Sequence record: MT127620
Source: Escherichia phage PGN6866
DNA: 64,000 nucleotides
Direction: 5' to 3' (one strand)
Positions 9,308-43,289 of this stretch are shown piece after piece (the first letter of the stretch is position 1; every line of letters begins with the position of its first letter). The notes beneath the pieces are model-generated. The model was not told where the DNA came from and made no database searches. It was given only the letters and a program-made list of their open reading frames with translations. Position numbers and translations under genes: made by a program.

Positions 9308-10849
9308 ATGTCATTAGATAAACAAATTTATGAAGCTCTAACTGGTAACAACCTTAGTGTAGAGGAAAAGAAAGCACTATTGAATATGTTGAAAGAGCGT
9401 GACCAATGGAGGAAGTATAATAAGATTTTGTCTTTCAAGGCGTATGACTTCCAAAAGAAATTTTATGCAGCAGGATTGAAGCATCGCTTTAGATTCTTGT
9501 GTGCAGCGAACCGTGTTGGTAAATCTTATAGCGAGGCATACGAGTTTGCTTGTCATGTCACAGGTCGCTACCCAACTTGGTGGACAGGATATAAATTTAA
9601 AAGACCTATCTTAGCATGGGCAGTTGGTATTACAGGGGATTCCACAAGGAAAGTATTGCAAAAGGAATTGTTTGGTACACCTATCGGAAAGGATACAAAT
9701 TTATTAGGGACAGGTGTCATTCCTCGTGATGCTATCGTCATTGACACGATAGAACGAGATGGTAACAAACTTCAAATCGTACAAATCAAACATCAAAACG
9801 AAAGAGGAGAGTTTGACGGTTTAAGTACATTAGAATTCCGTTCAACCCAACAGGGTGAACACACATTGATGGGTGCAACAGTTGACTACATTTGGTTAGA
9901 CGAAGAAGATCCATACGAGTCTATGGCTATATTCGCACAGTGCGTCACACGTACACTCACAACTAAAGGTCTAGTTACAATTACAGCTACACCAGAGAAC
10001 GGTTTAACTGAACTGGTAGATAAATTTATGAAAGGTGAAGGGGATGAGAACACAGGTTCTCTGTATTTCCAGAATGCTTCTTGGTGGGATGCTCATGCAG
10101 ACCTAGGTGGACACATCACTGACCAAGATATAAAAGATATGACTGAAGGTATTCCAGCGTGGCAGTTAGAGATGCGTTCGAAAGGTATGCCATTGTTAGG
10201 AAGTGGTTTGATTTATGATGTATCGGATGACACAATTAAATGTGAACCATTCGAAATTCCTGATACGTGGAAACGTGTCTGTGCAATTGATATTGGTATT
10301 GATCACCCAACTGCTGCTGTTTGGACAGCTTACGATGCAAACACGGATACTATCTATGTTTACGACTCATATAAAGAAGGTGGCTTTACTCCAGTGTATC
10401 ATGCTCCAGCTATTAATGGTCGTGGTCAGTGGATTCCTGTCATCCTGCCGCACGATGCGGACAATATTGAGAAAGGTAGTGGCTCATCTGTTGCTCAATT
10501 CTATAAGAATGCAGGAGTTAACGTACAGAGTGAGACCTTCTACAACAAAATTGGAATGGATGGTAAAAAGAACTTCTTTGTAGAACCCGGAATCACAGAT
10601 ATCCGAGAAAGAATGATGAGTGGACGCTTTAAAATCTTTAACACAGCCGCTAATGCTAAGCTATTCGAAGAGAAAGCTAGATATCACCGTAAGGTTGGTA
10701 AGATTATTAAAGAACATGATGACTTAATGGATGCGATGCGCTATTCAGCGTGCTCTGTTACACATCGTGGTCGCTCTAAACATGACGTTAGCTACGGAAG
10801 TGCTTCTCTGTATGAGGCAAACGTAAGCAGATGGAATCAGAGTTACTAA
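9308..10849 (+). CDS. terminase large subunit
   Basis: 513 aa; Walker-A-like NRVGKS, Walker-B-like DYIWLDEED, nuclease-type acidic residues; precedes portal. Confidence 0.8.
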   Translation: MSLDKQIYEALTGNNLSVEEKKALLNMLKERDQWRKYNKILSFKAYDFQKKFYAAGLKHRFRFLCAANRVGKSYSEAYEFACHVTGRYPTWWTGYKFKRPILAWAVGITGDSTRKVLQKELFGTPIGKDTNLLGTGVIPRDAIVIDTIERDGNKLQIVQIKHQNERGEFDGLSTLEFRSTQQGEHTLMGATVDYIWLDEEDPYESMAIFAQCVTRTLTTKGLVTITATPENGLTELVDKFMKGEGDENTGSLYFQNASWWDAHADLGGHITDQDIKDMTEGIPAWQLEMRSKGMPLLGSGLIYDVSDDTIKCEPFEIPDTWKRVCAIDIGIDHPTAAVWTAYDANTDTIYVYDSYKEGGFTPVYHAPAINGRGQWIPVILPHDADNIEKGSGSSVAQFYKNAGVNVQSETFYNKIGMDGKKNFFVEPGITDIRERMMSGRFKIFNTAANAKLFEEKARYHRKVGKIIKEHDDLMDAMRYSACSVTHRGRSKHDVSYGSASLYEANVSRWNQSY

Positions 10850-21920: not shown

Positions 21921-22139
21921 ATGAAAATGATGAAACAAGCTGCATACGGTTTAATATGTTTAGGCGCAGGTGTTGTGGTGTCGACCGCAGTTCCTGTAGG
22001 CGCAGTTCATCCATTAGTAACTGTCCCTGCTCCAGTAGAGAAGCTTAGTTCTCAATGTAAGCAGAGAACAATTCAAAATAACTTAGTTGTTATTTGCCCT
22101 GATGCTGAATCTAACGCTCTGAGAAAGATACTACCTTAA
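21921..22139 (+). CDS. small membrane/secreted protein (holin or signal-anchored candidate)
   Basis: 72 aa, one N-terminal hydrophobic segment, directly upstream of lysozyme. Confidence 0.35.
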   Translation: MKMMKQAAYGLICLGAGVVVSTAVPVGAVHPLVTVPAPVEKLSSQCKQRTIQNNLVVICPDAESNALRKILP

Positions 22140-22168
22140 TTTAAAGGGACTACAAAAGGAGGTTAGAA

Positions 22169-22660
22169 ATGGATAACGTCGCATTGCCACCTGTACAACT
22201 AAACTTAAGCCCAGCGGGAATGGAATTCATCATGAAGCATGAGGGTATGAGAACCAAGGCTTATAAAGATTCCGCAGGTATCTGGACTATATGTGTAGGG
22301 GCTACGCGCGATATGAATGGTTATCCGGTTAGACAAGGATTAACGTATTCTATAGAGGATTGTCTAGCTCTGCTAGATAGAGACACACAAGACTCTGTTC
22401 GTGCTACTCAGAAGAACATAAAGGTTCCTTTACTAGTTCATGAGTTTGATGCACTCACTTCTTTCAACTTCAACGTTGGCAGTGGGGCTTTGAGCACATC
22501 TAAGTTAAGGAAGGTAATCAATGGAGATGTTAAGGGGGATGTTTATTCCGAATTTCTTCGTTGGGATAAAATAACGGTCAAGGGAGAGAAGCAGAGAAGT
22601 CAGGGTCTTCATAATAGAAGAGTTGCAGAAGCTAATCTTTACACCGAAGGTAAATATTAA
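22169..22660 (+). CDS. lysozyme (glycoside hydrolase family 24-like)
   Basis: 163 aa; MKHEGMRTKAYKDSAGIWTICVGAT and FNVGSGAL motifs. Confidence 0.8.
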   Translation: MDNVALPPVQLNLSPAGMEFIMKHEGMRTKAYKDSAGIWTICVGATRDMNGYPVRQGLTYSIEDCLALLDRDTQDSVRATQKNIKVPLLVHEFDALTSFNFNVGSGALSTSKLRKVINGDVKGDVYSEFLRWDKITVKGEKQRSQGLHNRRVAEANLYTEGKY

Positions 22661-33132: not shown

Positions 33133-36100
33133 ATGGCTAACATTAAACCGTGGGAAGAAGCTTCCAAAGCTCCTGCGTATCTGAATGCCTCTCCGGAGCA
33201 ACAAGCTCAAATGAGAGAACAATATAAGGCAGCAGGTGGCTCTATTCCTGAGGAACAACCAGTAGCACAACCACAACAAGAAGAACGTGGTGCTATAGGT
33301 GAGTTTGCTCAAGGTGTGTCAAATGCTCTTCAATCTGGTGGTGCAAATATTGCAGCTAGTGCTGCTAAAGGTATTGGTGGTTTAGTTGAGATTGGTGAGA
33401 ATCTAGCTGGAGCACAGACTAGTTATGGTAAGCGTATCCAAGAGAACTCTCAGAACCTTCTGAAAGAACGTATGGATAAGATTGAGGATGGGATTGGCAA
33501 AACTGTCGGTCAGTATGCTGGCGTTGCTGGCGATATTGGTATGACTGTTGCTAACCCATTGGCTGCTGCTGCTATCATCGCAGGTCGTGAGACAGGTCGT
33601 GCATATGCAGACCAAACCCCTGAAGAGGGAGAAGATAAGTCTATTCTAGATGCAGCCTTAGTTGGTGGTGCTAACTATGCGGCTCAGAGAATCCTTCCGG
33701 GTGCTGTTGGTACAGCTGAGTCCACACTTGGACGTATTGGTCAGAACGTTGCTAGTAACGCAGTGGCTGGTGCTAAAGGTGGTGCTCTTGTGGGTGCTGC
33801 TGAAGCTCAGAACAAGCACGGAGATGACACAACCTTTGCTAATGTATTAGAAAGTGCTATCGAAGAAGGTGCTATGGGTGCTGCATTCGGTGGTGCAGTT
33901 GGTGGGGTTCATGGTTTGATTAGCCGTCCGGATTCTGCTGTCTTCAAGAATACTCCAGAGTATGCGAAGACTGATATTGCTGCTGATGACGAACTGATTC
34001 GTAGTGCTAAGAATATTGATGAATTGAAAGAAGCTTACTCTAAAGCTGAAACTGCTAACGCTGCTTCTGCTCTGAACCTTCTGGATGAGAATGGATTCCG
34101 TATTACAGATGCTGTTGCTGTAGATTCTCCTGCTGCTCAGCGTATTCTTAATACTGACCAAGCTCGTGCTGAGAAAGCTGCTTCCGTTCAGAAAGAACAT
34201 TCCAACATTCCGGGCCTCAACCCTTTAGCTTCTCCTGCTAAGACTCGGGGTAAAGCATTCGCTGATAACGAGCACAACCAGAAGCAGGCTGTTGCTATGA
34301 AGGATGCAATGGCTGATTACACCAAAGACAACACGAAAGCCCTTACAGATGTTCTAGATAACCTAGACCGTGAATTAACTTCTCTCCGAGCTTCTGGTGA
34401 TTTTACTGGTAGTCCGATTGATATTAAGAACCGTACACAAGCCGACCGTGATTTCATTGATGCTTATAAGACTTTCTACAATGAAGCAAATCGATTCAAA
34501 GCTCGTGATGGTGAAGACTTTAATAACTTTGTAGAGAAAGCTGCTGAACTACAGAAGATGGCTGATAATGTTTCTCCAGAGATGAAGAAAGCTATCGGTG
34601 GGTTGAAGAAACTGAAAGGTATGCCTGAAGGTTTTAATCCTATTCAAGATGCTTACACTCTGAATAATACAGCTAAGTTTATGAGTAACCAAGATCGTGG
34701 TTGGACTTCCCTGACTGATGATGGATTCCGTGAGGCTTCTTCTCCTAGTCTGGTAATGAACACTCTCGGTGCTGCTAAATATGCTCTGAATCGCTTCTCT
34801 TCTCAGCGTGCCCGTTCTCAACGTGTTAAGCAACAAGAGTCTAACAGTGAAGCTATCCGCTCTCTGGCTCGTGGTGATTTGGAAGTTGCTCGTGCTAAAT
34901 CTACTGCTGATGAAGCTCGTGCTAAAATGGAAGAAGAACCAGTTGTTGATGACATTAAATTTAAGACGCAAAATGACGTAGAAACCGAACCGGTTCGGGA
35001 GCCTTCTTCTAGTACTGTGACGGAAGAAAATCTTCCTTCTTCTACTCCTCAAGAAACCCCTCTCACAGCTCGTGATTTAGTTGCGCAAAGACGCGCTATC
35101 CGTCAGGCTGAACAGCGTCGCGCTGAAGAAGAGGCAGCAGCAGCAGCTCAAGAAGCTCCGGTCGAACAAGCTCCACAGGCTGAACCTCTCCCTGCTCGTA
35201 ACCCTCTAGAGGAGCGTCGTGCAATGGAACAGCAACGTGCTCAAGAAGAGGCCGCACAGGCTCCAGAACCAACCGTAGAGGAACCAACAGTCAAAGCTGA
35301 GCCATTACCTGCTCGTGCTCCTAAAGCTCCTAAGGAAGCTGTACAGGACGTTAAACCGGCAAGTGGTGTAGAACGTTTAGCTGCTATGTCTAGTGCTGCT
35401 CGTCAGGCTACTAAAGATCGTGCAGAACGCTTTGCTCGTTCTCTGTACTCTAAGGCTGCTAAAGCTAAAGCTACTGCTGAAAACTTCTTGGCTTATAAAG
35501 GCGATCCTAAGGAACTGATGCGTCGTATTCGTCAGGAAGATAATGCTATCAACACTGAACGTCATGAAGAAATGGCTCGTAACCAGCTGGCTTCTCAGCA
35601 AGGTATTGCTACTGCTAAGAACAACACTGTACGAACTAATTTTGCTGAATGGGTTAAGGAACGTGGCCTGCCAGAAGATATTGCTACTAAGGCATTACGT
35701 GCTGAAGAGAAAGGCTTAGGTGGGAACGTAACTAACTTGGATAGTCTGAAACGTCGTGCTGAAAGGTTGTATCAGAAGCAGCGTGAGGATGAGTTTGATA
35801 GACTGTACCAACAAGCTCTAGAAGAGAACAAAGCTTTCGATAAGAAAGATGCTCCTAAACTGGTTGATCAGAAGAAAGAGCTTCAGTCTGAGATTGATGC
35901 TTTGATTGATTCAGAACCTTTACGTCCTGCTCAGAAAGATGCTATGCGTAAGCTGATGAATGACTTTGTAGATGGGAAGTTTAAATCTTCAGAGAAGGCT
36001 GGTAGGGAAGAGGCTTTGGAAGTTGGTCAGATGAAGGATATTTGGGATGGGTTTATTAACACCTATAACAGAGAAGTGAATGCCTTCAACAAAGCTAACA

Positions 36101-40087: not shown

Positions 40088-41573
<1,486 letters not shown>

Positions 41574-41574
<1 letters not shown>

Positions 41575-41834
41575 TATTCTATTCCACGCTCTTTCAGAGC
41601 TTCTAACAATCCGTTGTGATTGGCAGCACATTCTGTGTACTGGTCCTGATACCACTCCAACGTAGTGGCTAGTGCTTTTCCTTGAGCACTTTCTAAAAGA
41701 GGCAGGTCAACCCTACATTCAGCTTTTAGGTTTGTTGGTAAGGGCATTGATTGCCTGCTGTTGTCGCTCATTGAACAAGCTGACATACTCATCACTAGCG
41801 CAGACATTATAAAAAACTGGTTTAGTTTTCTCAT
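41574..41834 (-). CDS. putative outer-membrane lipoprotein (o-spanin candidate)
   Basis: Start MRKLNQFFIMSALVMSMSAC with lipobox-like Cys; overlaps the upstream gene in another frame. Confidence 0.4.
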
Positions 41835-42069
41835 AATGCATCTCTTTATAAACGGTTTCCGTGTTCTTCTTCCAGTTAGATAAACCGGTAAGAACCCTCT
41901 GAGCAACTTCATCAGCTGCTCTACTTCTTTCAATCTCTAACTCTTGCTGGTGCTTCTCTTTGTCCAGATTACTGCTGTCTGTTTGATATTCGTTAAACTT
42001 CATACCACCAAAGAATACAAGAGCTGAGAAAACGATAAACCCTAAGTTGTCACTTAATGTGTTTTGCAT
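41719..42069 (-). CDS. putative i-spanin (N-terminal TM plus coiled coil)
   Basis: ATG at 42069 after GGAGA; TM segment LGFIVFSALVFFGG then charged helical region; track start 42093 would include a terminator hairpin. Confidence 0.45.
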   Translation of the reverse strand: MQNTLSDNLGFIVFSALVFFGGMKFNEYQTDSSNLDKEKHQQELEIERSRAADEVAQRVLTGLSNWKKNTETVYKEMHYEKTKPVFYNVCASDEYVSLFNERQQQAINALTNKPKS

Positions 42070-42081
42070 GTTGTCTCCAAC

Positions 42082-42107
42082 GAAAAAAGCCACCCGGAGG
42101 TGGCTAA
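42082..42107 (-). terminator. rho-independent terminator (minus strand) after the SSB-like gene
   Basis: GCCACC-CGGA-GGTGGC hairpin with TTTTTT on minus strand. Confidence 0.5.
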
Positions 42108-42126: not shown

Positions 42127-42873
42127 TTAGAATGGGCTATCGTTGTCGTCTTCGTAAGTAGAAGCAGGCTCTTTATCAATCGTAGGGATTGAAGGGGTAG
42201 CTTCTTTCTGCTCTGTTTCAGAAGCACGAGTAATTTCACGACCAGCCAGAGGCATGTTCTTAGCGTCATTAGCTTGAGTAAGCAGGTTGCGCTGGAACGG
42301 GAACATCAGTTGATAGGATGCTACGTTCTCATCGGTTTCAGCATACGGTTCGAAGAATACCAGAGGACTACGAGCTTCACCAACTGCTGCACGATATTTG
42401 GTTGGGATTGGAGAAATAGTCTTGATGGAGTTTTTAACTTCACCAGCTTTGTTAGTGTAAGAGTTAACCAGAATGTTAACAGGCTGACCTAACAGAACAT
42501 CCTTGAACCAAGACAGATCACCTTTCAGTGCTTGAATACTTGGGTCAATCATCTTGCAAAGATCAAGAATACCAGAGTTCTTAGCTCGTGGGTTTACATC
42601 ATAGCTCTTGAACTGGCAAGCCGGACGTGGTTCTAATGCCTTACCATCGGAATCTTTACCAGTAGCATCAACACCAATCAGCTCGAAAGCTAAATCCATA
42701 CGGAAAGCCGGATTCTTAGGAGTCACTGCTTTGGTCTTCGGGTCAACCCAAGGGTCACGATTGTGAACACCCAAACCTACTACACGAACGATACGTGCTT
42801 CGTACTCACCATCAGGGATGATGTCGTAGTTGGATTTACGAGAAGAAGTTGCGATAGTTGGAATCATAGACAT
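42127..42873 (-). CDS. single-stranded DNA-binding protein candidate (T7 gp2.5-like architecture)
   Basis: 248 aa ending in acidic tail YEDDNDSPF with terminal Phe; lies in the replication module. Confidence 0.5.
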   Translation of the reverse strand: MSMIPTIATSSRKSNYDIIPDGEYEARIVRVVGLGVHNRDPWVDPKTKAVTPKNPAFRMDLAFELIGVDATGKDSDGKALEPRPACQFKSYDVNPRAKNSGILDLCKMIDPSIQALKGDLSWFKDVLLGQPVNILVNSYTNKAGEVKNSIKTISPIPTKYRAAVGEARSPLVFFEPYAETDENVASYQLMFPFQRNLLTQANDAKNMPLAGREITRASETEQKEATPSIPTIDKEPASTYEDDNDSPF

Positions 42874-43289
42874 ATTTTAATTTCCTTATTTAATTTGAAA
42901 GATTGTTGCTCTCTTTGAGCGGTTATGTATAGTATACATTACGCTTATACCGATAAGAGTACTATATAATATAAGTATCTTTGGTAGTAGATATAACACA
43001 CTAGTAATGTATATATTGTATAGCTGATAAAGTTATTGCAGGCTTGTATATTGGGCAATTCACAGAATCCCTTGCAAGTACCGAAGGGCAGGAGCCACCT
43101 GCGAGATAAAAATAGAGAATTAAGGAATCCTTGATTTAGGTTGTAGGGACTCCTAGGGACTTTGATTCTCTATTTAAAAGAATATTAATTACTTATTACC
43201 TAAATAATTAACTAACTTACTTAAACCAAATTCAATAAGAATAGATAAAAAGATTATTCCTAAGAAAGCTAAAAAGTAAAGGATATAAG

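What the first reader, a model, noticed from the sequence alone, without database searches (positions are those of the whole stretch)
41574..42069. Overlapping dual-frame gene pair resembling an embedded spanin architecture
A 116-aa protein with an N-terminal TM segment and a charged coiled-coil region overlaps by 116 nt, in a different frame, a gene for an 86-aa putative lipoprotein (MRKLNQFFIMSALVMSMSAC...). This mirrors the lambda Rz/Rz1-type arrangement. The lipobox is non-canonical (Met at -3), so the call is tentative.
Basis: partly seen in the sequence, partly recalled or inferred. Interest (0 to 1): 0.4.

Follow-up and report, generated by a model that had tools for sequence, protein, structure and literature searches.

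The report
Known overlapped phage spanin gene pair
This is the outer-membrane-disrupting "spanin" gene pair of a phiEco32-like coliphage, two proteins read from overlapping frames; it is real but already catalogued, so it is ordinary.

Summary
On the minus strand, a 116-aa membrane-anchored helical protein (41719-42069) and an 86-aa lipoprotein precursor (41574-41834) share 116 nt, the second in the +1 frame.

The window is a Kuravirus (phiEco32-like podophage, 98.7% identical to Shigella phage ShigP1). The pair is this group's two-component spanin:
- The i-spanin hits PHROG 1152 "Rz-like spanin" (E 2.7e-37).
- Phage Paul annotates the same genes as i-spanin and o-spanin.
- Kongari et al. 2018 list phiEco32 as an "overlapped" spanin with this 116-nt overlap.

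Both proteins recur together, still overlapped, in Felix O1-like, 9NA, Erwinia and P2-like phages. In two of these they directly follow holin and endolysin. The lipid-attachment Cys20 is invariant. The Met at -3 passes the PROSITE lipoprotein rule and is replaced by Leu, Ile or Thr in relatives.

One correction: the architecture is "overlapped" (P2 lysB/lysC type), not "embedded" (lambda Rz/Rz1). There is no detectable sequence kinship to the lambda or T4 spanins.

Unusual but known traits are the position in the middle-gene cluster, about 19 kb from holin/endolysin on the opposite strand, and an intrinsic terminator just upstream. No member of this family has been tested experimentally, as far as I found. 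Novelty: already known. Interest is low.

The parts
41719..42069 (-). i-spanin gene (116 aa): N-terminal transmembrane helix followed by a helical periplasmic domain with a single conserved Cys90
   Evidence: ORF and translation. PHROG 1152 'Rz-like spanin', E 2.7e-37. 100% identical to Paul CPT_Paul_036 'i-spanin' and 99% to phiEco32 gp39. N88, C90 and N100 are invariant across 10 homologs.
42001..42045 (-). Codons for the i-spanin transmembrane segment (residues about 9-23, NLGFIVFSALVFFGG)
   Evidence: Kyte-Doolittle maximum 2.23 at residues 9-23. The Paul record notes a TMpred transmembrane domain at residues 8-23. AlphaFold2 places a helix at 3-25, at low confidence.
41574..41834 (-). o-spanin gene (86-aa precursor, 67-aa mature lipoprotein), in the +1 frame relative to the i-spanin
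   Evidence: ORF. PHROG 2425, E 3.7e-26, with a weak hit to PHROG 456 'Rz-like spanin'. 100% identical to the full-length phiEco32 frame and 98.8% to Paul CPT_Paul_035 'o-spanin'. Listed in Kongari Table S4 for phiEco32.
41719..41834 (-). 116-nt dual-coding overlap. It encodes the conserved C-terminal 38 residues of the i-spanin and, in the +1 frame, the o-spanin signal peptide, lipobox and start of the linker.
   Evidence: Coordinates. The fraction of variable sites is 0.17 here against 0.33 and 0.37 in the single-coding flanks. 13 of the 20 variable sites fall on i-frame third positions.
41775..41786 (-). Lipobox codons M17-S18-A19-C20. Cys20 (41775-41777) is the predicted lipid-attachment site. 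The +2 residue is Ser, which predicts outer-membrane sorting.
   Evidence: Passes PS51257. Cys20 is invariant in 10 homologs of 24-92% identity. LipoP note on the Paul ortholog.
42075..42078 (-). Shine-Dalgarno GGAG for the i-spanin, 5 nt before the ATG
   Evidence: Upstream sequence. A ribosome-binding site is annotated at the equivalent place in Paul.
41842..41846 (-). Shine-Dalgarno-like AAGAG for the o-spanin, inside the i-spanin coding sequence, 7 nt before the ATG
   Evidence: Upstream sequence. The same GAG/AGAG is marked as the o-spanin ribosome-binding site for NJ01 in Kongari Table S1 and in Paul.
42080..42105 (-). Intrinsic terminator-like hairpin (AGCCACC-TCCG-GGTGGCT followed by TTTTTT) between gene 40 and the i-spanin
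   Evidence: Terminator scan. A terminator is annotated at the same place in Paul.
21921..22139 (+). Holin gene, partner lysis function, about 19 kb away on the opposite strand
   Evidence: PHROG 11161 holin, E 2.8e-50. Annotated as holin in ShigP1.
22169..22660 (+). Endolysin (lysozyme-type) gene, partner lysis function
   Evidence: PHROG 7 endolysin, E 4e-46. Annotated as endolysin in ShigP1.

Best explanation
The two genes encode the two-component spanin of a phiEco32-like (Kuravirus) coliphage, in the 'overlapped' gene architecture.

Shown by sequence:
- The 116-aa product has one N-terminal membrane helix and a helical, charged periplasmic domain with one conserved Cys.
- The 86-aa product, translated from its own ribosome-binding site in the +1 frame, has a lipoprotein signal peptide ending in M-S-A-C. 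It has Ser at +2, a roughly 25-residue unstructured linker, and a C-terminal helix with two further Cys.

Inferred from the established spanin model (lambda Rz/Rz1, Young laboratory):
- The i-spanin sits in the inner membrane.
- Their C-terminal parts bind across the periplasm, forming disulfide-stabilised complexes threaded through the peptidoglycan mesh.
- When holin (21921-22139) and endolysin (22169-22660) destroy the peptidoglycan, the complexes are freed to collapse and fuse the inner and outer membranes. This removes the last barrier to phage release.

Also inferred: the genes lie in the middle-gene cluster and are probably transcribed by read-through of the terminator at 42080-42105, from a promoter upstream of gene 40. 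The spanin would then be pre-loaded in the envelope and held in check until the cell wall is degraded.
For: - Identity of the locus: 98.7% nucleotide identity to Shigella phage ShigP1 and 98.3% to phiEco32 over 1.8 kb.
- Family match: PHROG 1152 'Rz-like spanin', E 2.7e-37, for the i-spanin.
- Existing annotation: phage Paul, curated at the Center for Phage Technology, annotates the same two ORFs with the same 116-nt overlap as i-spanin and o-spanin. Its notes give TMpred and LipoP evidence.
- Published catalogue: Kongari et al. 2018 (PMC6139136) list PhiEco32 among overlapped two-component spanins. Coordinates are i 35417-35768 and o 35272-35533, overlap 116. With the +6301 offset these map exactly onto 41719-42069 and 41574-41834.
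- Co-conservation: homologs of both proteins occur side by side and still overlapping in Felix O1, Sf18, Erwinia vEam_PM_21, 9NA, ESSI2_ev040 and a Proteus phage, at 24-40% identity.
- Context elsewhere: in 9NA and ESSI2_ev040 the pair directly follows holin and endolysin.
- Conserved residues: the lipobox Cys20 and Cys69 of the o-spanin and Cys90 of the i-spanin are invariant.
- Purifying selection: substitutions concentrate at third codon positions of each gene's own frame outside the overlap (45/78 and 33/49). Variability is halved inside the overlap.
- Natural experiment: in SU7 and PAS59 an HNH endonuclease gene has split the pair at the lipobox codons. Both genes were kept intact, and the o-spanin acquired a new signal peptide ending in L-M-A-C.
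- Specificity: only 2 of 1421 candidate starts in the window pass the lipoprotein rule.
- Complete lysis set: holin and endolysin are present in the window.
Against: - I found no experimental test of any member of this spanin family: no complementation, lipid labelling or lysis phenotype.
- SU10 virion and lysate proteomics did not detect either product.
- The pair is not in a lysis cassette. It lies about 19 kb from holin/endolysin, on the opposite strand, among middle genes next to a macro-domain gene and the phage sigma factor.
- The i-spanin N-terminus has no basic residue before the membrane helix. [quoted passage not shown] Its N-in topology is therefore assumed, not predicted.
- There is no Pfam or NCBIfam model hit and no detectable similarity to the tested T4 spanins.
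- Pepcoil predicts no coiled coil.
- Both structure models are of low confidence, mean pLDDT 56 and 61.
Confidence: 0.9

Rival explanations
1. Only the short, non-overlapping version of the second gene is translated: 57 aa, starting at the ATG at 41747, as annotated in phiEco32, ShigP1, SU10, ECBP2 and others. The product would then be a small soluble cytoplasmic protein with no signal peptide, and the 116-nt 'overlap' would be an annotation illusion.
For: This is how most GenBank and RefSeq records call the gene: 174 nt, overlapping the i-spanin by only 29 nt. Gene callers penalise long overlaps.
Against: - The upstream 39 codons keep the pattern basic N-terminus, then hydrophobic core, then [GAS]-Cys in every homolog down to 24% identity. 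Cys20 is invariant.
- In SU7 and PAS59 the ancestral signal-peptide codons were cut off by an HNH insertion, and a new, unrelated signal peptide with a lipobox precedes the same Cys. That makes sense only if the Cys must be lipidated.
- The sequence before 41747 (GCGACAACAGCAGGCAATCA) has no Shine-Dalgarno match, whereas 41834 has AAGAG at 7 nt.
- Kongari et al. explicitly report that wrong starts are common for o-spanins, with 64 cases.
Confidence: 0.03
2. The pair is a membrane protein plus lipoprotein with a non-lytic role, such as superinfection exclusion or envelope modification. The analogy would be lipoproteins like T5 Llp or lambda Bor (recalled from general knowledge). It would be expressed in mid-infection with the replication and transcription genes.
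For: The pair lies in the middle-gene cluster, far from holin/endolysin and on the other strand. No functional test of the family was found. There is no sequence similarity to spanins that have been tested.
Against: - Homologs of both proteins occupy the canonical spanin slot right after holin-endolysin in 9NA and ESSI2_ev040.
- The strict pairing and overlap of a type II membrane protein with a lipoprotein is the spanin signature.
- The only other lipoprotein-rule hit in the 64-kb window lies out of frame inside the large terminase gene, so I found no alternative o-spanin candidate in the window. A Gram-negative phage needs a way through the outer membrane.
- T4 also keeps its spanin genes away from its other lysis genes.
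Confidence: 0.05
3. The second reading frame is a chance open frame inside and after a real gene and encodes nothing.
For: Alternative-frame ORFs of this size occur by chance. The ORF list of this 5-kb region holds many.
Against: - 145 nt of the ORF lie outside any other gene in a tightly packed genome, and its stop overlaps the next gene's ATG (TAATG).
- Third-position-biased substitution in its own frame, 33/49 against 6/48 at second positions.
- tblastn hits to the same frame in 291 phage records.
- PHROG 2425 match, E 3.7e-26.
Confidence: 0.01

Closest known systems
phiEco32 gp39/gp38 and Escherichia phage Paul CPT_Paul_036/035 (Kuravirus overlapped two-component spanin; Kongari et al. 2018 i-spanin family 'JH2' and o-spanin group NJ01/ECBP2/KBNP1711/PhiEco32)
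   Same: It is the same genes. The i-spanin is 99-100% identical and the o-spanin 98.8-100% identical. The lengths (116 and 86 aa), the 116-nt overlap, the frame offset, the flanking genes and the upstream terminator are all the same.
   Different: There are only point differences, for example C-S-M-S here and in phiEco32 against C-S-T-S in Paul and ShigP1 after the lipobox. The phiEco32 and ShigP1 records annotate a truncated 57-aa o-spanin.
P2 LysB/LysC (prototype of the 'overlapped' spanin architecture)
   Same: The gene layout is the same: the o-spanin starts inside the 3' part of the i-spanin gene in another frame and extends beyond its stop (class definition). The topology signals are the same: an N-terminal transmembrane domain and a lipoprotein signal.
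   Different: Kongari's clustering places P2 in separate i- and o-spanin families. I did not compare the sequences directly. P2's pair sits in its lysis cassette (established knowledge), whereas this one does not.
Lambda Rz/Rz1 (prototype spanin, 'embedded' architecture)
   Same: The inferred mechanism and topology are the same. The o-spanin is in the +1 frame. Periplasmic cysteines are available for disulfide-linked dimers.
   Different: - Rz1 lies wholly inside Rz. Here 145 nt of the o-spanin gene lie outside the i-spanin gene.
- There is no hit to the Pfam Rz/Rz1 families.
- Lambda Rz1 is described as unstructured. This o-spanin has only 3 Pro in 67 mature residues and a predicted C-terminal helix at 50-82.
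- No coiled coil is predicted by Pepcoil.
T4 PseT.3/PseT.2 ('separated' spanin, experimentally validated)
   Same: - Very similar sizes: 117 and 83 aa as given in Kongari (the RefSeq pseT.2 CDS is 99 codons), against 116 and 86 aa here.
- An o-spanin with two periplasmic Cys and a predicted C-terminal helix.
- Located outside a lysis cassette among early/middle genes.
- In the Felix O1-like relatives the homologous pair even sits near a polynucleotide kinase gene, as in T4.
   Different: The genes do not overlap appreciably in T4. Profile comparison finds no homology beyond the transmembrane and lipobox segments (hhalign probability 1% and 16%). T4's i-spanin has no periplasmic Cys.

Membership tests
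Two-component spanin (functional class, criteria of Summer 2007 / Kongari 2018) | i-spanin: a small protein with a single N-terminal transmembrane domain and a predominantly helical periplasmic domain | tested here: met
   Hydropathy peak 2.23 at residues 9-23 and no other hydrophobic segment. Helices at 36-76, 79-91 and 93-111 in a low-confidence model. Jpred gives 61% helix for phiEco32.
Two-component spanin (functional class, criteria of Summer 2007 / Kongari 2018) | o-spanin: a lipoprotein signal peptide with lipobox and Cys, and no Asp at +2 (outer-membrane sorting) | tested here: met
   Passes PROSITE PS51257 with Cys at position 20. R2 and K3 lie in the N-region and the +2 residue is Ser. 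The Cys is invariant in homologs. LipoP SpII score 18.03 is noted for the Paul ortholog. No dedicated lipoprotein predictor could be run here.
Two-component spanin (functional class, criteria of Summer 2007 / Kongari 2018) | The two genes are adjacent in an embedded, overlapped or separated arrangement, with the i-spanin first | tested here: met
   116-nt overlap, o-spanin in the +1 frame and extending 145 nt past the i-spanin stop. This is the overlapped class.
Two-component spanin (functional class, criteria of Summer 2007 / Kongari 2018) | At least one periplasmic cysteine for homotypic disulfide bonds (present in 507 of 528 systems) | tested here: met
   i-spanin C90; o-spanin C40 and C69 besides the lipidated C20. 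C90 and C69 are invariant.
Two-component spanin (functional class, criteria of Summer 2007 / Kongari 2018) | Linkage to holin/endolysin in a lysis cassette (usual, but not obligatory) | tested here: not met
   Holin and endolysin lie at 21921-22660 on the plus strand, about 19 kb away on the other strand. Homologs in 9NA and ESSI2_ev040 are in cassettes. T4 shows that linkage is dispensable.
Two-component spanin (functional class, criteria of Summer 2007 / Kongari 2018) | Function: required for outer-membrane disruption, or complements a lambda Rz/Rz1 defect; the i- and o-spanin C-termini interact | not testable with these tools
   This needs genetics and biochemistry. I found no published test for this family.
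Kuravirus/Felix O1-type spanin sequence family (PHROG 1152 and PHROG 2425; Kongari 'JH2' i-spanin family) | Significant sequence match of both proteins to the family | tested here: met
   E 2.7e-37 for PHROG 1152 and E 3.7e-26 for PHROG 2425. All 10 aligned o-spanins hit PHROG 2425. PhiEco32 is listed in the JH2 family.
Lambda Rz/Rz1 family (embedded architecture; Pfam Rz and Rz1 models) | o-spanin gene wholly contained within the i-spanin gene | tested here: not met
   The o-spanin ends at 41574, 145 nt beyond the i-spanin stop at 41719.
Lambda Rz/Rz1 family (embedded architecture; Pfam Rz and Rz1 models) | Sequence homology to Rz / Rz1 | tested here: not met
   No Pfam spanin family appears at E <= 1 for either protein, nor at E <= 0.1 for any of 10 i-spanin homologs.
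T4 PseT.3/PseT.2 spanin family | Sequence homology to PseT.3 / PseT.2 | tested here: not met
   hhalign probability is 1% (i-spanin) and 16% (o-spanin). The alignments cover only the transmembrane or lipobox stretch.

The most novel reading that the evidence does not exclude
This spanin family may work and be timed differently from the lambda paradigm.

- Timing: it would be made as a middle-gene product, in one operon with a macro-domain enzyme and the phage sigma factor. Its dose would be set by read-through of the terminator that abuts its ribosome-binding site. It would then be loaded into the envelope long before holin fires.
- Mechanism: its two subunits would join through a helix-helix contact between the o-spanin C-terminal helix (residues 50-82) and the highly conserved i-spanin C-terminus, without canonical coiled coils.
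- Side effect of the overlap: the doubly constrained 116-nt overlap would act as a preferred homing site for HNH endonucleases, as in SU7 and PAS59. There the invader splits the pair and donates a new signal peptide from an alternative frame of its own 3' end.
Probability: 0.25. Interest if true: 0.3.

Novelty: already known. Interest (0 to 1): 0.12.

Why it matters
For the genome scan it matters mainly as a positive control. A tool-free reader correctly spotted a dual-frame spanin pair that most deposited annotations of this phage group still get wrong. The o-spanin is truncated to 57 aa without its signal peptide in phiEco32, ShigP1, SU10, ECBP2 and others.

Correct spanin calls matter for phage-therapy genome curation and for engineering lysis timing. 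Biologically the pair adds nothing new. It is already in the published spanin catalogue and in curated records.

The modest open points are these. This sequence family has no Pfam model, and I found no experimental validation of it. It is also expressed from an unusual genomic position.

Tried and rejected
- Pfam and NCBIfam scans of both proteins returned no spanin family. Membership of the lambda Rz/Rz1 families was therefore rejected.
- I tested whether the family is a diverged relative of the experimentally validated T4 PseT.3/PseT.2 pair. The idea came from the similar sizes, the two periplasmic Cys, the C-terminal helix and the polynucleotide-kinase neighbourhood in Felix O1-like phages. 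Profile comparison found nothing beyond the transmembrane and lipobox segments, so it was rejected.
- The PDB sequence search with the i-spanin profile found only chance-level hits with E near 0.8-1, such as FtsB and augmin.
- I looked for direct evidence of translation in the SU10 proteomics table. Neither spanin is among the 34 detected proteins. This is uninformative, because these are small membrane proteins and the database held a truncated o-spanin.
- Single-sequence AlphaFold2 models of both proteins have mean pLDDT of only 56 and 61. I used them for secondary structure only and ran no fold search.
- The alternative GTG start for the i-spanin at 42093 was rejected. It lies inside the terminator stem and upstream of the GGAG ribosome-binding site.
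- I searched for the gp36-type promoter consensus directly upstream of the spanins. None lies between the terminator and the ATG. The nearest perfect match is upstream of gene 40, and the overall count in the window (19) equals the chance expectation (19.35), so the promoter assignment stays an inference.
- The phage collection already answered the question.

Full report
**1. What is in the sequence**

All genes in this part of the window run on the minus strand.

- A 116-codon ORF starts at the ATG at 42069 and ends at 41719. It is preceded by GGAG five bases upstream.
- An 86-codon ORF starts at the ATG at 41834 and ends at 41574. It is preceded by AAGAG seven bases upstream.
- The second start lies 235 nt after the first. 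The two genes therefore share 116 nt (41719-41834), with the second in the +1 frame.
- The stop of the second gene overlaps the ATG of the next gene, a macro-domain protein, as TAATG.

The first product has one hydrophobic segment at residues 9-23 (Kyte-Doolittle mean 2.23). Its 91-residue remainder carries 15 acidic and 13 basic residues and one Cys, C90.

The second product begins M-R-K, followed by a hydrophobic core and M-S-A-C, with Cys at residue 20 and Ser at +2. The 67-residue mature part has Cys at 40 and 69 and only three prolines.

**2. Is it more than chance?**

I applied the PROSITE PS51257 lipoprotein rule to every ATG, GTG or TTG in all six frames that has at least 40 codons before a stop. 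Two of 1421 candidates passed, and this ORF is one of them. The other lies out of frame inside the large terminase gene.

I then aligned eight uninterrupted relatives from Kuravirus and Suseptimavirus and counted variable sites.

| Region | Variable at codon positions 1 / 2 / 3 | Fraction variable |
|---|---|---|
| i-spanin-only part | 24/79, 9/78, 45/78 | 0.33 |
| o-spanin-only part (own frame) | 15/48, 6/48, 33/49 | 0.37 |
| 116-nt overlap | 13 of 20 changes fall on i-frame third positions | 0.17 |

Both frames are therefore under purifying selection. In the overlap the i-spanin sequence is held fixed, while the o-spanin signal peptide absorbs the changes.

**3. What the window is**

The 1.8 kb around the finding is 98.7% identical to Shigella phage ShigP1 and 98.3% identical to phiEco32. 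All 98 megablast matches are phiEco32-like coliphages. Those whose records I opened are classified in Gordonclarkvirinae, genera Kuravirus and Suseptimavirus. Gene coordinates in the window coincide with ShigP1 from its position 9394.

**4. What the pair is**

- The i-spanin candidate matches PHROG 1152 'Rz-like spanin' at E 2.7e-37.
- The lipoprotein matches PHROG 2425 (no function assigned) at E 3.7e-26, and matches PHROG 456 'Rz-like spanin' weakly.
- Phage Paul, annotated at the Center for Phage Technology, carries the same two ORFs, 351 and 261 nt with a 116-nt overlap. They are labelled i-spanin (TMpred transmembrane domain at 8-23) and o-spanin (LipoP SpII score 18.03, cleavage between residues 19 and 20).
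- Kongari et al. 2018 (PMC6139136) list PhiEco32 among 'overlapped' two-component spanins. The i-spanin falls in the 'JH2' family together with Felix O1-like phages. The o-spanin falls in a group with NJ01, ECBP2 and KBNP1711.
- Their Table S4 gives i 35417-35768, o 35272-35533 and an overlap of 116. With the +6301 offset, these are exactly the window coordinates.

The finding is thus an already catalogued feature.

**5. Independent support from distant relatives**

tblastn finds the o-spanin in 291 phage records and the i-spanin in 450. I extracted both frames from 15 loci. The two genes are adjacent and overlapped in Felix O1, Sf18, Erwinia phage vEam_PM_21, 9NA, ESSI2_ev040 and a Proteus phage, at 24-40% protein identity.

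In 9NA and ESSI2_ev040 the pair directly follows holin and endolysin, which is the canonical spanin position.

Across ten o-spanins, C20, G52, C69, N74 and L76 are invariant. The residues before the Cys read MSAC, TSAC, LSAC, LMAC, IAGC, ISAC, TASC and MSGC. Met at -3 is therefore one tolerated variant at a position that is canonical in close relatives. Across ten i-spanins, N88, C90 and N100 are invariant.

**6. A natural experiment**

In SU7 and PAS59 an HNH endonuclease gene lies between the two spanin genes. I compared SU7 with its uninterrupted relative 101114UKE3.

- 31 nt beginning exactly at the Ala-Cys codons of the lipobox are present twice.
- The upstream copy is recoded. It stays synonymous for the i-spanin but places a stop in the old o-spanin frame, leaving a 17-codon relic.
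- The downstream copy is 100% identical to 101114UKE3 and continues as the o-spanin.
- The new signal peptide, MLTKKKQKSCLVIFLASSLMAC, is encoded in an alternative frame of the 3' end of the HNH gene.

Selection thus preserved an intact i-spanin and a lipidatable o-spanin after the overlap was broken. This argues strongly against the 57-aa start used in many records.

**7. Mechanism**

The sequence shows the topology signals, the conserved cysteines, the translation signals, and a complete lysis set: holin at 21921-22139 (PHROG 11161, E 2.8e-50) and endolysin at 22169-22660 (PHROG 7, E 4e-46).

The rest is inferred from the established Rz/Rz1 model, as summarised in PMC6139136:

- The i-spanin is anchored in the inner membrane.
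- The o-spanin is lipidated on Cys20 and sent to the outer membrane.
- The two bind through their C-terminal parts, stabilised by homotypic disulfides.
- After the endolysin removes the peptidoglycan, they fuse the two membranes.

Secondary structure from low-confidence single-sequence models gives helices at 36-76, 79-91 and 93-111 in the i-spanin. In the o-spanin it gives a disordered linker at 21-43 followed by a helix at 50-82 with pLDDT 75-86. Pepcoil predicted no coiled coil for the phiEco32 i-spanin, so 'coiled-coil' is not supported as such.

**8. Context and expression**

- The pair sits in the cluster described as middle genes in phiEco32, which is transcribed opposite to the late genes. 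It lies about 19 kb from holin/endolysin.
- A terminator-like hairpin with a T-run (42080-42105) ends a few bases before the i-spanin ribosome-binding site. The same feature is annotated in Paul.
- A perfect match to the published gp36-dependent promoter consensus TAATGTATA lies upstream of gene 40 at 42933-42941 on the minus strand. Matches within one mismatch are no more frequent in the window than chance, 19 against 19.35 expected.
- Expression by terminator read-through is therefore my inference, not a result.

**9. Comparison with known systems**

- It is the same thing as phiEco32 gp39/gp38.
- It shares its gene layout with P2 lysB/lysC, the overlapped class.
- It is not embedded as in lambda, and it has no hit to any Pfam spanin model.
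- It resembles T4 PseT.3/PseT.2 in subunit sizes, o-spanin cysteines, the C-terminal helix and its location away from the other lysis genes. Profile comparison nevertheless shows no homology.

**10. Verdict**

- The feature is already known.
- What remains open is experimental. I found no functional test of any member of this sequence family.

Noticed in passing
window 41574-41747 (-); L002 3475-3648; L003 1475-1648; L005, L012, L013 1288-1461; L017 775-948: Many deposited Kuravirus and Suseptimavirus records (phiEco32, ShigP1, ECBP2, 101114UKE3, Bas92, SU10) annotate the o-spanin as a truncated 174-nt, 57-aa ORF. This version lacks the signal peptide and lipobox. ShigP1 even names the truncated ORF 'o-spanin'. 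Paul and SU7 have the full-length call.
   Followed up: yes
L006 (SU7) 688-1725 and L014 (PAS59) 1492-2529: An HNH endonuclease gene is inserted exactly at the lipobox codons of the spanin overlap, turning an overlapped pair into a separated one.
- 31 nt are duplicated.
- The upstream copy is recoded synonymously for the i-spanin and puts a stop in the old o-spanin frame.
- The new o-spanin signal peptide is encoded in an alternative frame of the HNH gene's 3' end.
The doubly constrained overlap may be the homing site. This parallels the T5/Shivani GIY-YIG case described by Kongari et al.
   Followed up: partly
L017 (SU10) 1329-1742; same two-piece pattern in H2, H13, H14, H22, H24: A different HNH endonuclease gene sits between the gene 40 homolog and the i-spanin in SU10. 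KM01, CHD5UKE1, 1-6af and FH3 also match in two pieces; only the KM01 and RefSeq CHD5UKE1 records name an endonuclease under the match. It is absent from this window, which suggests the spanin neighbourhood is a hot spot for homing-endonuclease insertion.
   Followed up: no
window 42080-42105 (-), 42933-42941 (-), 43005-43013 (+): A strong intrinsic-terminator hairpin ends a few bases before the i-spanin ribosome-binding site. Perfect matches to the phiEco32 gp36-dependent promoter consensus TAATGTATA lie on both strands in the 42874-43188 intergenic region upstream of gene 40. This suggests divergent phage-sigma promoters and attenuated read-through into the spanin, macro-domain and sigma genes.
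   Followed up: partly
window 41133-41162 (-): A near-consensus sigma-70 promoter (TGGACA, 18-nt spacer, TATAAT; 11 of 12 matches) lies at the 3' end of the macro-domain gene, just upstream of the phage sigma-factor gene. It matches the sigma-70 promoter predicted within phiEco32 gene 37 and mentioned in PMC8948821.
   Followed up: partly
window 41134-41574 (-); L009 2778-3560; L015 4258-5043; L010 3778-4572: A macro-domain (Appr-1-p processing) gene is coupled to the o-spanin stop through a TAATG overlap. Distant macro-domain homologs lie downstream of the homologous spanin pair in Erwinia Kolesnikvirus and Felix O1 (24-25% identity; pairwise E 6e-6 and 2e-9). Sf18 likewise has an annotated macro-domain gene about 1 kb downstream of its pair; I did not compare it. 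The recurring linkage is unexplained. Suseptimavirus and Bas92 lack the gene at this position.
   Followed up: partly
window 42127-42873 (-): Gene 40 homolog, 248 aa, PHROG 6599 (unknown function, E 1.2e-118), with no Pfam or PDB sequence hit. It ends in an acidic tail, ...YEDDNDSPF, which resembles the C-terminal tails of single-stranded-DNA-binding proteins (E. coli SSB ends ...DDDIPF, recalled from memory). It may be the phage SSB.
   Followed up: partly
window 10356-10583 (+): This is the only other ORF in the window that passes the PROSITE lipoprotein rule (MFTTHIKKVALLQCIMLQLLMVVVSGFLSSC, 75 aa). It lies in an alternative frame inside the large terminase gene and is probably a chance match.
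   Followed up: no
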